Shown here: positions 12,001 to 15,000 of the stretch, piece by piece
Layout of the letters: each line of letters begins with the position of its first letter
How positions within the stretch are numbered: the stretch's first letter is position 1
Assembly (NCBI RefSeq): GCF_030013205.1
Contig: NZ_CP122648.1
Source of the DNA: Escherichia coli
GTDB lineage: Bacteria; Pseudomonadota; Gammaproteobacteria; Enterobacterales; Enterobacteriaceae
DNA length: 64,000 nt
Reading direction: 5' to 3' (one strand)
Program-made: the position numbers

Positions 12001-15000
12001 AAATTCATGATGCAGTAAGAAAAGATACTGTGAGATTTAATTCTCCATCTAATGGAGTAACGGCTGTTTCAGGGTTTAAAGTGATTTCGGTTGTCCCTGT
12101 TCCATGAATGGTTATAGAAGGGGCTGGAAGCCCCTAATTATTACTTCTTAATATCGCCAGTGCATTGATATTCGATAGTCACAAGTGTTTGCATACAACC
12201 AGATGAAGAAGGTTGTGAACATTGAGAAGTGAATCCACCAAAAGGCTCGGCTCCTGAATATCCCCAAGCGGCACAACGCGCTTTGGCTGCATTCATGCCT
12301 TGTTGTGGATCTACAACAGGACTTTCAAACATACCGTAAGAATAACTCATCCTAACTGTGCCGTCTGATTTGCTTCCACCAGTTGGAACGAGTTGTTTTT
12401 TTGTTGCACATCCAGAAATAATCAATGTTGAAGCAAGTAACAGCATTAAACTTTTGCGCATGTAAATAATCCCAAGAGATAATGGTTATGTATTGATTTA
12501 AAGCGTTTTTAGATTAATGCATTAACTTAGCAAAATTAAGTCTTTTCTGATTGTTTGCAGAGTAAAAATGAGTTGCTTTCGAAATTATTTCGGATGTTTA
12601 TTGTATTACGGTTTTTCAAACCGTCTAACTATTGTCGCTATTGAATGGGCAATAATAGCAAGAGGATTCATTTCGTCATTGGAGGCAACAAAAAGTCGGT
12701 AACTGATAGCTACAACGAATGAAACAATAACGAGAAAGCGGATAGTGCTAAGATGTTTTGAAGATAAATGCATAACGCCCCCTAAATGAATGTGAGGGGG
12801 ATTAAATCATGCAAATTTGTTGTGTGCAATACTGGTAATTTATCCTAATAGTCTACTATTCACCTCAATCTACGTCAACCAATATTTGATGTAGATTTGA
12901 TTTTCTTTTAAAAACAATATGTTGCAATTTGTTGGGTTTTGGGGTTAGGTTGTTTTTTGGACGTTTCCATCAAGTGTAAAGATACGTTTAGCCTTCATAG
13001 TGAGTTCAGTTACTGTCTTTTTCTCTGAAATCGGCGCATACGTGATCATCGCTTAACGAGAAGATCAGCGCCGTCAGGTCCATGCAGCGACAATTCTGAA
13101 ATATCAGGAGGCATTACGCTTCCTGCTCTTTCTTGATACGTTGCACCGTCTGTGTGCTGACACTGAAATCTTTTGCTACGCTCCGAATTGATCCACCATT
13201 CGCGAGAGCGGCAACAATTCCCGCTCGATCAATTGCTTTTCCATTACCACGTTTTGCTATACGCCCAGCTGCCTTAGCTGCGGCGATCCCTTCACGTTGA
13301 CGCTCAAGCATCATTTCACGTTCCATTTGTGCCACTGCTGCAAGCACTGTGAGCATCATATTCCCTGCGGGAGAGTTCTTCCCTGTCTTAAAGTCTTCTT
13401 TATGGAAATGCACAGACACGCCGCGCTCTGTTAATTGCTCAACCGTTGCCAGAAGGTCGGCTGTATTACGGCAAAGGCGATCAATACTGTGAACATGCAA
13501 AACATCACCTTCCCGCACATAGTTCATCATTGCCTCAAACTGTGGGCGCTGGGTATTCTTGCCTGACGCTTTATCTTCAAAGACTTTATCAAGAGCTACT
13601 CCAGCTAATTGACGGTCTGTGTTTTGTTGCACAGTCGATACCCTAATGTATCCAATATTAGCCATTTTCTTTATTCCTTCTGTGTTGATTTGTGTGTAGT
13701 GATTATTGATCGTGTTGATTAGGTGTGTAAAGGACTTTTTTCACTACGAAATTCGAAGGTTTTTAGTGTGGTGATTTAGCCTGCTTTATCACTACACGTC
13801 TTGCATGAGAATCATGTAGTTACGTTTTGGTAAAATTAGCAAGCTATTAAATAGTGTGTTTATTTTGAAAAAATAATTTTTTGTTGCATTAAAGAAAACT
13901 TGTTCGACAAATAATAGATTGATTTTTAATCAATAATTTCTGATAGTGCTCTGTAAGCCGCATTACACAAGGCTTTGCGAAAGTGATGTAAAAGTGAAGA
14001 AAGTAAGAATTGCACTTTTAAGCTACTTTTCATTGAATTTTTAGTATGGAATTACACAGGGATTAATCATCAATTACATTGAATTTAAGCCTGTTTTAGA
14101 TGTTTAATTTTGGTAGCAAGAAACACTTTTAGAAGATCATTGCACAGATGTTATGTGATAAATGGATGTAACGATGGGTTACATTCAGCTATCTGAAATA
14201 CTCTCTGTAAGAAATTTGGTAGTAACGATTCGTTACATAGACTAATTATTGAATGTAACGATATTACACATCGGTAGTAACGATACGTTACATCGGCAGA
14301 TGATTGGTTGTAACGAAAGGTTACACAATAAGACTAACATCTATAATACTAATAATAAAACTAACTATTAAACTATATAATATAATTCTTTTTTATCTTT
14401 ATAAGAATAATTATAGGGATACCCGTTAGGGAGTCTAACGACTATCCCTTAATCTATTGGCATTCGCCAGAACCTTGCACAAGTTAGAGTGTTAGTCGTT
14501 AGACTGCTTGTCATAACACATAGTTTTTGTTTGTTGATGTTAGTTAGTAGATCTATGTTCGCTTTCCGCTCACAACGAATATGTAATCTACTATGTGCAA
14601 ATAGCCTACGGCTTGCGTAAGGCTAAATAGTCTTGCGCTGTGCGCAGAACGATAATTAACTAACTACCATCTAACGATCATCAATCATCTAAAATAAATT
14701 TCTTGTGCAATGTTCTTGCGAATGCAATTAGGGTAGCGTTACCCCTTTGGGGATGCTAACGCATAACTATAGATCAACCATCAAACAGACAAAAAAGAAA
14801 AATATGGTTTAAAGATGTTAGGTAGTAGATGAGTTTCTACCGCTTAAATCAAGCCGTAGGCGAGCTAAACGTATATAAGGTAGGGAAACACTTAGCGGTA
14901 ATAGATTAGCTCGTTATAGAGATTCTGAGGAGCTTTACAGGTATTTTATAAGGTGTCTGAAATTAGATTTTATCTACCATCACCTTTTCATATACCTAAC

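What the first reader, a model, noticed from the sequence alone, without database searches (positions are those of the whole stretch)
14417..14770. Diverged inverted duplication enclosing 218 bp, about 0.75 kb from a serine recombinase gene: possible invertible switch or cruciform control element
14454-14483 and the reverse complement of 14702-14731 agree at 26 of 30 positions. Looser similarity, including shared CGTTAG/CTAACG hairpin-forming motifs, extends each arm to about 70 bp. The left core contains the quasi-palindrome AACCTTG-CA-CAAGTT. Two short arms around a central non-palindromic dinucleotide is the geometry of a serine-recombinase crossover site. Hin/Gin/Cin/Pin-type invertases act on inverted sites of about 26 bp near their own gene. 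The enclosed segment carries further inverted TAGTAGAT/ATCTACTA motifs (14546 and 14585). The arms could also simply be a structured regulatory or origin feature.
Basis: inference. Interest (0 to 1): 0.55.

Follow-up and report, generated by a model that had tools for sequence, protein, structure and literature searches.

The report
Origin-side inverted repeat, not a switch
The inverted repeat is real, but it never appears flipped in hundreds of E. coli genomes and does not depend on the nearby recombinase; it is a fixed non-coding control module next to the replication origin of a small phage-satellite-like island.

Summary
Observation confirmed. 14454-14483 and 14702-14731 are 26/30 complementary; shuffles give 20.3 on average and 24 at most. 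The looser ~70-bp arm similarity is also real.

The invertible-switch reading is not supported.
- The enclosed 218 bp is in one orientation in all 231 E. coli genomes that carry the full region.
- No genome, viral contig or metagenome contig shows the flipped junction. The native junction occurs in 26 metagenome contigs.
- The serine recombinase and its 230-bp upstream region (13114-13890) form a swappable cargo cassette with its own res-like dyads.
- Seven loci keep the arms without the recombinase.

The repeat sits in a 1.5-kb ORF-free region of a ~15-kb island in E. coli ETEC4079. The island encodes capsid, Dit-like and integrase proteins.
- Immediately left of the repeat is a lambda-type origin: five dyad iterons, an 86% AT stretch and a palindrome.
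- Iteron type matches the type of the O-like initiator across all scorable loci (about 45).
- The arm-bearing module (T1) is independent of initiator type.
- T1 is perfectly linked to the island's capsid/tail gene lineage. A sister lineage (T2) lacks the arms.
- The left arm is invariant in 26 alleles; the right arm exists in three alleles.

Best reading: inverted copies of a ~30-bp recognition site for a lineage-specific island factor, serving origin function or DNA packaging. This function is inferred, not shown.

The parts
13114..13665 (-). Small serine recombinase (183 aa). It is part of a swappable cargo cassette, 13114-13890, and is not a core gene of the island.
   Evidence: Pfam Resolvase domain, E = 5.7e-39. 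It is about equally close to Tn3 / gamma-delta resolvases and to Gin invertase. It is absent from 7 loci that keep the arms, and homology resumes at 13891-13897.
13681..13797 (.). Candidate res site of the recombinase: repeated GTGTAGTGAT-type half-sites in both orientations.
   Evidence: Repeats found. The 57%-identical recombinase of lineage T2 is preceded by a different dyad motif, GTATTCATTTGG. Function is inferred.
14157..14325 (.). Five dyad-symmetric iterons (TGTAACG-N3-5-GTTACA) of the island's replication origin.
   Evidence: Repeat family D1/D2; coordinates. Iteron type matches the N-terminal type of the initiator in all scorable loci, with four types.
14330..14416 (.). AT-rich stretch (86% A+T), the presumed unwinding region of the origin.
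   Evidence: Composition. The stretch is conserved next to every iteron type.
14416..14448 (.). Left bulged hairpin / palindrome, GGGATA-[CCC GTTA GGG]-[AGTC TAAC GACT]-TATCCC.
   Evidence: The stems are kept while the loop of the second mini-hairpin changes between alleles (TAAC / TTC / TTT / CTT).
14454..14483 (-). Left arm, lying inside a 43-bp invariant block (14446-14488). It is one copy of the ~30-bp repeat CTTGTGCAA.-nnn-CTG.-CGAATG-C.AAT.AG, read on the minus strand.
   Evidence: 0 of 30 columns vary among 26 distinct alleles.
14484..14701 (.). Enclosed 218 bp. It holds a 49-nt hairpin (14545-14593) whose loop carries TTCCGCTCACAACGAA (14564-14579), and a GC hairpin TGCGC-TGT-GCGCA (14634-14646). 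These two motifs are the only sequences shared with the arm-less T2 lineage.
   Evidence: No convincing ORF: frame-breaking indels and a (TTTTTG)n length polymorphism occur among alleles. No promoter passed the scan.
14702..14731 (+). Right arm, the second copy of the ~30-bp repeat. It exists in three alleles (A, B, C), and some islands carry two right modules in tandem.
   Evidence: 15 of 30 columns vary. Only TTGTGCAAT (14703-14711), CTG and CGA.TG are kept in all versions.
14736..14762 (.). Right bulged hairpin, GCGTTA-CCCC-TTT-GGGG-ATGC-TAACGC.
   Evidence: Allele B replaces it with GTGCTA-CGC-GTTA-GCG-ATGT-TAGCAC: different sequence, same shape and same 3' bulge.
15783..16463 (+). O-like replication initiator (226 aa from the ATG; the mechanical ORF starts at 15726). 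It is the trans factor for the iterons, not for the arms.
   Evidence: PHROG 'replication initiation protein / O-like' hits, 5e-6 to 2e-3, and Pfam HTH_36. Co-variation with the iterons.
16473..16742 (+). 89-aa winged-helix protein specific to lineage T1, a candidate binder of the arms (inference only).

Best explanation
The two arms are inverted copies of a ~30-bp sequence-specific recognition site. Each is coupled on its outer side to a GC-rich bulged hairpin. Together they bracket a ~220-bp conserved core immediately to the right of the lambda-type replication origin of a ~15-kb integrative, capsid-encoding, phage-satellite-like island.

The module is fixed in orientation. It is not acted on by the neighbouring serine recombinase, which is a resolvase-type cargo gene with its own res-like site.

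It most likely works as a cis-acting DNA element. A factor encoded by the island's T1 lineage binds the invariant origin-proximal site and the more variable distal site or sites. The winged-helix protein p89 (16473-16742), encoded just downstream of the initiator, is the obvious candidate. Binding would loop the intervening DNA into a nucleoprotein complex. That complex would serve either origin function (helicase loading or replication control next to the AT-rich region) or recognition of the island's DNA for packaging.

**Shown:** the repeat, its fixed orientation, its independence from the recombinase and from the initiator/iteron type, its linkage to the capsid/tail gene lineage, and the origin assignment.

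**Inferred:** protein binding, looping, the identity of the binder, and the replication-versus-packaging role.
For: **The adjacent DNA is an origin.**
- Five dyad iterons, an 86% AT stretch and a palindrome lie immediately left of the arms.
- The island encodes an O-like initiator.
- There is a perfect four-way match between iteron type and initiator N-terminus across about 45 loci.

**The arms are copies of a recognition sequence, not a pair maintained by base-pairing.**
- The left arm and the three right-arm alleles all fit one consensus, with conserved sub-blocks TTGTGCAA, CTG and CGA.TG.
- The left arm never changes (0/30 variable columns) while the right arm does (15/30), with no compensating change.
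- The RNAalifold covariation term is about 0.

**The module depends on lineage-specific factors.**
- All four initiator/iteron types occur with both the arm-bearing T1 module and the arm-less T2 module.
- T1/T2 is nevertheless perfectly linked to the genes downstream of the initiator:
  - p89: 93-100% in T1, only a 24%-identical counterpart in T2.
  - p127: 67-100% versus about 30%.
  - capsid: 97-100% versus 71-73%.
  - p607: 94-100% versus 61-69%.
  - Dit-like: 100% versus 59%.
- This linkage holds even though the shuffled initiator cassette lies between the module and those genes.

**A candidate binder exists.** p89 models as a winged-helix DNA-binding fold.

**Orientation is fixed everywhere examined**.
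Against: - No binding protein has been demonstrated, and the p89 assignment is only co-inheritance plus fold.
- The T1/T2 linkage could reflect shared ancestry of two lineages rather than co-adaptation.
- Only two copies of the site exist in the island, fewer than in typical centromere-like or terminase-binding arrays.
- No similarity to any phage cos or pac region was found, and no terminase small subunit is recognisable in the island.
- The very stable predicted fold and the shape-preserving replacement of the right hairpin would also fit a structured RNA or single-stranded DNA.
Confidence: 0.5

Rival explanations
1. Structured non-coding RNA (or structured single-stranded DNA exposed during replication). 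The arms would form a long-range helix closing a ~280-nt domain. Alternatively, as inverted copies, they would place the same sequence-plus-hairpin motif into two divergent transcripts, in the manner of nutL/nutR or putL/putR.
For: - Folding z-scores of -6.6 and -6.1.
- All three right-arm alleles retain strong pairing potential with the left arm: -38, -29 and -30 kcal/mol, against -15 +/- 3 for shuffles.
- The right hairpin is replaced by an unrelated sequence of the same shape, including its 4-nt bulge.
- A few one-sided changes keep G-U pairs on the plus strand.
- The motifs shared with T2 sit in predicted loops or form a small conserved hairpin, flanked by variable helices.
Against: - No Rfam family matches at E <= 1.
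- No conserved promoter or terminator brackets the region.
- The covariation term is about 0 and the left arm is invariant, so pairing is not demonstrably selected.
- Stability is equal on both strands, as expected for any DNA inverted repeat.
- The T2 lineage has no equivalent closing helix.
Confidence: 0.2
2. Packaging recognition site (pac- or cos-type). The arms would be binding sites for a terminase small subunit or a redirecting protein, flanking the cleavage region. This resembles SPP1 pacL/pacR around pacC, or lambda cosB R sites around an IHF bend.
For: - Perfect linkage of the T1/T2 module with the capsid / 607-aa / Dit-like gene lineage, across an initiator cassette that recombines freely.
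- Two binding regions bracketing about 220 bp is a pac-like geometry (my own knowledge of SPP1 and lambda).
Against: - No similarity to any phage in INPHARED, even at E <= 10 for the conserved core.
- The shared 17-mer occurs in viral contigs only in copies of this island plus two unrelated chance hits.
- No terminase gene was recognised in the island.
- The position directly against the origin is equally explained by a replication role.
Confidence: 0.15
3. Invertible DNA switch driven by the neighbouring serine recombinase.
For: - The arms are inverted and share a short quasi-palindrome with the same central CA.
- A small serine recombinase lies 789 bp away.
- The recombinase variant co-occurs with T1 versus T2 when it is present (99% versus 55-58%).
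- Right-arm allele A looks homogenised towards the left arm: 26-27/30, and the flanking hairpin is also similar.
Against: - 0 of 375 genomes carry the flipped arrangement, against 231 with the native one.
- The flipped-junction pattern has 0 hits in metagenome and viral contigs, against 26 for the native junction in metagenome contigs; an overlapping left-arm pattern had found 13 viral contigs.
- All alleles aligned (about 45 distinct) are collinear.
- Seven loci have the arms without the recombinase.
- T2 islands have a recombinase but no arms.
- Each recombinase cassette has its own dyad repeats next to the gene.
- Half-site symmetry is poor, and no promoter or gene end lies in the segment.
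Confidence: 0.03
4. Functionless relic: an old inverted duplication, or a MITE-like insertion with terminal inverted repeats, carried along next to the origin.
For: - The right side of the module is mosaic and rich in indels.
- The T2 lineage does without the arms.
Against: - A 43-bp block with a single variable column (in one of the 26 alleles), while adjacent segments vary at 5-35% of alleles per column, indicates strong purifying selection.
- The element is single-copy: a median of 1 place per genome.
- Only 2 repeat copies occur in the island, so it is not a dispersed MITE.
Confidence: 0.1

Closest known systems
Hin/Gin/Cin/Pin serine-invertase switches (hix/gix sites plus a Fis enhancer)
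   Same: Inverted repeats near a ~190-aa serine recombinase gene, with a short dyad around a central dinucleotide.
   Different: - No orientation polymorphism in hundreds of genomes.
- The recombinase is an optional cassette 789 bp away, with the origin in between.
- Half-sites are not 12-bp dyads.
- The segment carries no promoter or gene end.
- The two sites are conserved very unequally.
Bacteriophage lambda origin (four dyad iterons bound by O protein, an AT-rich region, then a palindrome; my own knowledge)
   Same: The DNA just left of the arms has this layout. Its iterons co-vary with an O-like initiator.
   Different: - The origin lies upstream of the initiator operon, not inside the initiator gene.
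- The arms and the 218-bp core have no counterpart in ori-lambda.
- The arms and core are independent of initiator specificity.
Terminase recognition regions: SPP1 pacL-pacC-pacR and lambda cosB (R3-I1-R2-R1) (my own knowledge)
   Same: Repeated protein-binding sites, some inverted, bracket a functional centre over 100-300 bp. The module is expected to co-evolve with head and packaging genes.
   Different: No sequence similarity to any phage packaging site, no terminase gene in the island, and no DNA ends mapped.
Lambda nutL/nutR and HK022 putL/putR (my own knowledge)
   Same: Inverted copies of 'conserved linear sequence plus hairpin', so that divergent transcripts would carry the same RNA signal.
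   Different: No divergent promoters were detected between the arms, and there is no boxA/boxB similarity. The arms are 218 bp apart, not kilobases.
Tn3 / gamma-delta-type res sites
   Same: The recombinase gene is preceded by clustered dyad repeats (13681-13797), as a resolvase gene is by res.
   Different: Those repeats are a different sequence, lie in the recombinase cassette, and are not the arms of this finding.

Membership tests
Serine-invertase invertible switch (Hin/Gin type) | Both orientations of the segment occur in populations or related genomes. | tested here: not met
   - Flipped query: 0 of 375 genomes with 80% or more cover; native query: 231.
- Flipped-junction pattern: 0 hits in metagenome and viral contigs.
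- Native junction: 26 metagenome contigs.
- An overlapping left-arm pattern found 13 viral contigs.
Serine-invertase invertible switch (Hin/Gin type) | Two ~26-bp crossover sites, each made of two ~12-bp inverted half-sites around an identical 2-bp core. | tested here: not met
   Both arms contain CTTG-CA-CAAG / CATTG-CA-CAAG with the same CA. Taking 12-bp half-sites, only about 6-7/12 (left) and 5/12 (right) positions are symmetric. Arm homology is one-sided with respect to the core (read).
Serine-invertase invertible switch (Hin/Gin type) | The recombinase gene is inside or directly adjacent to the segment and is co-inherited with it. | tested here: not met
   The gene start is 789 bp from the nearest arm, with the iterons and AT-rich region in between. 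Seven loci carry the arms but lack the gene, and the cassette boundary is at 13891-13897.
Serine-invertase invertible switch (Hin/Gin type) | The segment carries a promoter or alternative gene ends whose orientation matters. | tested here: not met
   No ORF survives the indels among alleles, and no promoter-like site lies inside 14484-14701.
Serine-invertase invertible switch (Hin/Gin type) | A Fis-bound recombinational enhancer in the 5' part of the invertase gene. | not tested
   No reliable Fis-site predictor was available. The protein is equally close to resolvases and to Gin.
Iteron-type (lambda O-like) replication origin | Several repeated initiator-binding sites whose sequence co-varies with the initiator. 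| tested here: met
   Five dyad iterons at 14157-14325. Four iteron types match four initiator N-termini without exception.
Iteron-type (lambda O-like) replication origin | An AT-rich unwinding region next to the iterons. | tested here: met
   14330-14416 is 86% A+T and is conserved beside all iteron types.
Iteron-type (lambda O-like) replication origin | The arms themselves are initiator-binding sites or are required for initiation. | tested here: not met
   The first half of the feature is not met: the T1 arms occur with all four initiator/iteron types and are absent from T2 islands that have the same initiators, so they are not initiator sites. Whether they are needed for initiation cannot be tested with these tools.
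Structured non-coding RNA | Match to a described family, or significant covariation supporting the helices. | tested here: inconclusive
   - No Rfam hit.
- Covariation term +0.12 kcal/mol, with only 2 of 85 pairs changed on both sides.
- The right hairpin is replaced by a different sequence of the same shape.
Structured non-coding RNA | A defined transcription unit (promoter and terminator). | tested here: not met
   No promoter or terminator brackets 14417-14770. The nearest clear unit is 15207-15331.
Phage/satellite packaging site (cos/pac) | Sequence shared with a helper phage's packaging site, or mapped DNA ends. | tested here: not met
   No phage match in near or distant mode, or at E <= 10. 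The 17-mer scan found only copies of the island plus two chance hits. DNA ends cannot be tested here.
Phage/satellite packaging site (cos/pac) | Co-inheritance with the head/packaging gene module. | tested here: met
   T1 versus T2 is perfectly linked to the capsid, 607-aa and Dit-like protein lineage.
MITE / IS-derived terminal inverted repeats | Multiple dispersed copies, and presence/absence polymorphism of the whole unit. | tested here: not met
   A median of 1 place per genome, only 2 repeat copies in the island, and no allele lacking just the unit.

The most novel reading that the evidence does not exclude
The arm-bearing module is the lineage-specific cis signal of a previously undescribed family of E. 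coli capsid-encoding phage satellites. It would be either a packaging or replication-licensing site read by the island's own small winged-helix protein, or a ~300-nt structured RNA. It would tie each island lineage (T1, T2) to its own morphogenesis genes or helper, while initiator/iteron cassettes are exchanged freely around it.
Probability: 0.25. Interest if true: 0.6.

Novelty: new member of a known kind. Interest (0 to 1): 0.3.

Why it matters
For the finding as posed, the result is a correction. A tempting 'invertase plus inverted repeat' pair is not a phase-variation switch, so this locus should not enter catalogues of invertible promoters.

The context has some value of its own.
- The island is found, at least in part, in 743 of 5426 complete E. 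coli genomes.
- It has a cleanly modular origin with four interchangeable initiator/iteron specificities.
- It has a large conserved non-coding region whose central module tracks the capsid/tail gene lineage rather than the replication genes.

If that module is a packaging or licensing signal, it would mark how this satellite-like element recognises its own DNA. It would also give a handle for finding its helper phage.

Tried and rejected
**Invertible switch: rejected.** Tested with a flipped query and with junction patterns.

**Known RNA family: none found.** Rfam was run in E-value mode on 12500-16500 and in gathering mode on the whole window.

**Phage or plasmid homologues of the non-coding region: none found.**
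- Megablast and blastn against phages found nothing.
- The only plasmid-collection hits were two E. coli records carrying the same island, one of them a chromosome filed as a plasmid.

**Helper-phage cos mimicry: no support.** The conserved 17-mer and a 109-nt core query gave only island copies or chance hits.

**Distant relatives through the capsid protein in species-representative genomes: unproductive.** Only E. coli and one mis-binned MAG were found, so no deep covariation set could be built.

**RNAalifold and covariation on 15 T1 alleles: uninformative**, because variation is mosaic rather than substitutional.

**Host-factor motifs.**
- DnaA boxes (TTWTNCACA): none in the region.
- IHF consensus: none between the arms; the nearest is at 13912.
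- TTGCACAA / ATTGCAYW: not enriched in the window.

**More copies of the 30-bp repeat in the island: none.** An nhmmer profile scan found only the two arms.

**Pairing between the 15242-15333 leader RNA and the module (a P4 CI-RNA-like idea):** not above shuffles.

**Circular episomal contigs:** the 12.6-kb metagenome contigs merely break at the island's ends and have no terminal overlap.

**Small ORF 14489-14620 (43 aa):** rejected because alleles differ by frame-breaking indels.

**Literature:** three full-text searches did not turn up a description of this island.
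Full report
**Where the window comes from.** The window is identical to E. coli ETEC4079 chromosome NZ_CP122643.1, positions 959999-1023998. Window positions 1-11385 hold a P4-like satellite inserted at tRNA-Gly. That satellite is absent from strain K_EC180, where the element of interest directly follows the tRNA. The finding lies in a second element, window ~11386 to ~26290, next to the ETT2 type III secretion cluster.

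This element encodes:
- a YecR-like lipoprotein;
- a small serine recombinase (13114-13665, minus strand);
- an operon of small proteins;
- an O-like replication initiator (15783-16463);
- a lambda gpE-like capsid protein (19408-20436);
- a 607-aa protein;
- a Dit-like tail protein (24051-24728);
- a tyrosine integrase (24822-26042, minus strand).

Between the recombinase gene and the first operon gene lies 1.7 kb without a credible ORF (13666-15357). The inverted repeat sits in the middle of it.

The arms 14454-14483 and 14702-14731 are 26/30 complementary and 218 nt apart. They are the best such pair in the gap. In 100 dinucleotide-preserving shuffles the best pair averaged 20.3 matches and never exceeded 24. 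The weaker extension to about 70 bp per arm is visible in a direct alignment. It corresponds to a GC-rich bulged hairpin on the outer side of each arm, at 14416-14448 and 14736-14762. Folding of 14410-14790 is much more stable than shuffles on either strand (z = -6.6 and -6.1).

**Orientation test.**
- I built a query in which 14484-14701 is reverse-complemented between its native flanks and searched 5426 complete E. coli genomes. 375 genomes matched, but none with 80% or more cover in one place.
- The native query of the same coordinates was covered at 80% or more in 231 genomes.
- About 45 distinct alleles, taken from genomes, IMG/VR contigs and metagenome contigs, are all collinear with the window.
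- A 23-nt pattern that exists only if recombination at the proposed CA core has flipped the segment covers right-arm alleles A and B. It has no match in 241 million metagenome records or in 2.9 million viral contigs.
- The native left junction occurs in 26 metagenome contigs. An overlapping pattern inside the left arm had found 13 viral contigs.

Assemblies report only the majority state, so rare inversion cannot be excluded. Known invertase switches, however, show both states across assemblies (my own knowledge).

**The recombinase is not tied to the arms.**
- Seven loci with ample upstream sequence have the arms but no recombinase.
- In all seven, similarity to the window begins at 13891-13897.
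- In one of them the cassette is replaced by an unrelated 183-aa secreted-looking protein.
- The unit 13114-13890, meaning the gene plus 230 bp upstream, is therefore an exchangeable cargo cassette.
- Inside it, directly upstream of the gene, are four GTGTAGTGAT-type half-sites in alternating orientation.
- A 57%-identical recombinase in the sister lineage is preceded by a cluster of a different dyad motif, GTATTCATTTGG.

Recombinase-specific dyads next to the gene are what a resolvase/res unit looks like (my own knowledge of Tn3-family res sites). The protein is as close to Tn3 and gamma-delta resolvases (E ~1e-27) as to Gin (E ~5e-25).

**What lies next to the arms is a replication origin.**
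- 14157-14325 holds five dyad repeats, TGTAACG-N3-5-GTTACA.
- 14330-14416 is 86% A+T.
- 14416-14448 is a palindrome.

Iterons, then an AT-rich stretch, then a palindrome is the ori-lambda layout (my own knowledge). The product of 15783-16463 hits several phage 'replication initiation / O-like' families, although only weakly.

The decisive evidence is comparative. Across about 45 loci the repeat block occurs in four unrelated versions: GTAACG..GTTAC, TTCCTACCTA, GGTCACTGTGAGC and CAGAAnnCTGTTA. Each version is always found with one particular N-terminal version of that protein.

**The arms belong to a separate module.** A scan for two short motifs from the enclosed segment found a second lineage, T2. 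The motifs were TTCCGCTCACAMCGAA and, 45-75 nt downstream, TGCGCTGTGCGC (a longer form, TTGCGCTGTGCGCAGAA, is shared by T2 and some T1 alleles). In T2 the ~550 bp corresponding to 14382-14931 is replaced by about 780 bp of unrelated sequence. That sequence keeps only those two motifs and has no arms.

All four initiator/iteron types occur with both T1 and T2. The arms are therefore not initiator sites.

T1 versus T2 is nevertheless perfectly linked to the genes beyond the initiator:

| Gene product | Identity to window in T1 loci | Identity to window in T2 loci |
|---|---|---|
| p127 | 67-100% | about 30% |
| p124 | 90-100% | 65-70% |
| capsid | 97-100% | 71-73% |
| 607-aa protein | 94-100% | 61-69% |
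| Dit-like protein | 100% | 59% |

The integrase and the RHH protein assort independently. The iterons lie to the left of the module and the initiator gene to its right. Keeping the module matched to the downstream genes while initiator cassettes are exchanged therefore suggests functional coupling to a lineage-specific factor. Common descent of two lineages is the alternative explanation, and I cannot exclude it.

**Anatomy and conservation of the arms.** Among 26 distinct T1 alleles, the left arm has no variable column, and the 43-bp block around it (14446-14488) has one. The right arm varies at 15 of 30 columns and the right hairpin at 14 of 27. There is little ascertainment bias in this comparison. 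The 16 loci L001 and L004-L017, chosen by BLAST or by capsid-protein search, and all T1 loci re-found with the core pattern, carry the identical left arm.

The right arm exists in three alleles, and some islands carry two right modules in tandem, C followed by B or by the window-type allele A. The left arm read on the minus strand and all three right alleles fit one pattern, CTTGTGCAA.-nnn-CTG.-CGA.TG-..., with conserved sub-blocks. No further copy exists in the island.

All right alleles can still pair with the left arm, but that follows simply from being copies of one repeat. RNAalifold finds essentially no covariation.

The right hairpin is the one place where structure rather than sequence is kept. 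Allele A reads GCGTTA-CCCC-TTT-GGGG-ATGC-TAACGC. Allele B reads GTGCTA-CGC-GTTA-GCG-ATGT-TAGCAC.

**Conclusion on mechanism.** The feature is best read as a fixed cis-acting module beside the origin. It consists of an invariant origin-proximal recognition site and one or two variable distal copies in inverted orientation. Each is coupled to a hairpin-forming palindrome, and together they bracket a conserved core. I put about 0.5 on a protein-bound DNA element serving replication or packaging.

| Alternative reading | Confidence |
|---|---|
| Structured RNA or single-stranded DNA | 0.2 |
| Packaging site specifically | 0.15 |
| Relic of an old duplication | 0.1 |
| Invertible switch | 0.03 |

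The packaging reading overlaps the main reading and is listed separately because it makes distinct predictions.

No phage, plasmid or Rfam relative of the module was found. Three literature searches did not find the island described.

Noticed in passing
window 11386-26290 (island); loci L004-L071: The host element looks like an unannotated family of capsid-encoding, phage-satellite-like islands. It has an O-like initiator, a gpE-like capsid, a 607-aa protein, a Dit-like protein and a tyrosine integrase, but no portal or terminase was recognised. Matches to its non-coding region occur in 743 of 5426 complete E. coli genomes. There are two lineages (T1, T2). It was not found described in three literature searches.
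   Followed up: partly
window 14157-14325 and 15783-16463: Four interchangeable origin-specificity cassettes. Iteron sequence and initiator N-terminus co-vary perfectly across about 45 loci and recombine freely between the two island lineages.
   Followed up: yes
window 15207-15331: A near-consensus promoter (TTGACA-17-AATAAT with an upstream TG) is followed by two hairpins. The second is a terminator-like stem followed by a U-rich tail (the pattern scan did not flag it as an intrinsic terminator), just before the first operon gene at 15358. Some compensatory changes occur among alleles. It looks like a ~90-nt leader RNA or attenuator controlling the replication operon.
   Followed up: partly
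window 17816-18807: A second ~1-kb ORF-free gap lies between the early genes and the capsid genes. It is bracketed by a 17-nt inverted repeat (17836-17852 / 18788-18804, 94%) and contains a 21-bp-stem hairpin at 18720-18779.
   Followed up: no
window 13681-13797; L031 1875-2098: Candidate res sites: clusters of dyad repeats directly upstream of the serine recombinase gene. The motif differs between the two recombinase variants (GTGTAGTGAT versus GTATTCATTTGG).
   Followed up: partly
window 14851-14888 and 15025-15062: A 38-nt direct repeat (AAGCC..GGCGAGCTAAAC..) 174 bp apart. Several alleles have lost the segment between the copies, as expected from recombination between them.
   Followed up: partly
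window 14521-14536: A T-rich tract behaves as a (TTTTTG)n microsatellite, expanded by up to about 20 nt in some alleles.
   Followed up: no
window 1-11385: A separate P4-like satellite lies in tandem at tRNA-Gly, with its integrase just upstream of the window. It carries AntA-like, Icd-like, primase (2403-4208) and ProQ/FinO-like genes. It is present in ETEC4079 but not in K_EC180.
   Followed up: partly
window 22677-23950: An IS3-family element is inserted between the 607-aa gene and the Dit-like gene. It is absent at this site in K_EC180.
   Followed up: no
window 16473-16742: An 89-aa hypothetical protein models as a winged-helix DNA-binding fold. It is lineage-specific, with a 24%-identical counterpart in T2 islands.
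   Followed up: partly
window 14564-14579: The conserved loop motif reads, on the minus strand, TTGTGAGCGGAA. By my recollection of lacO1 (not checked with a tool), this matches about 11 of the first 12 bases of the left half and centre of the lac operator O1. It is probably coincidence.
   Followed up: no
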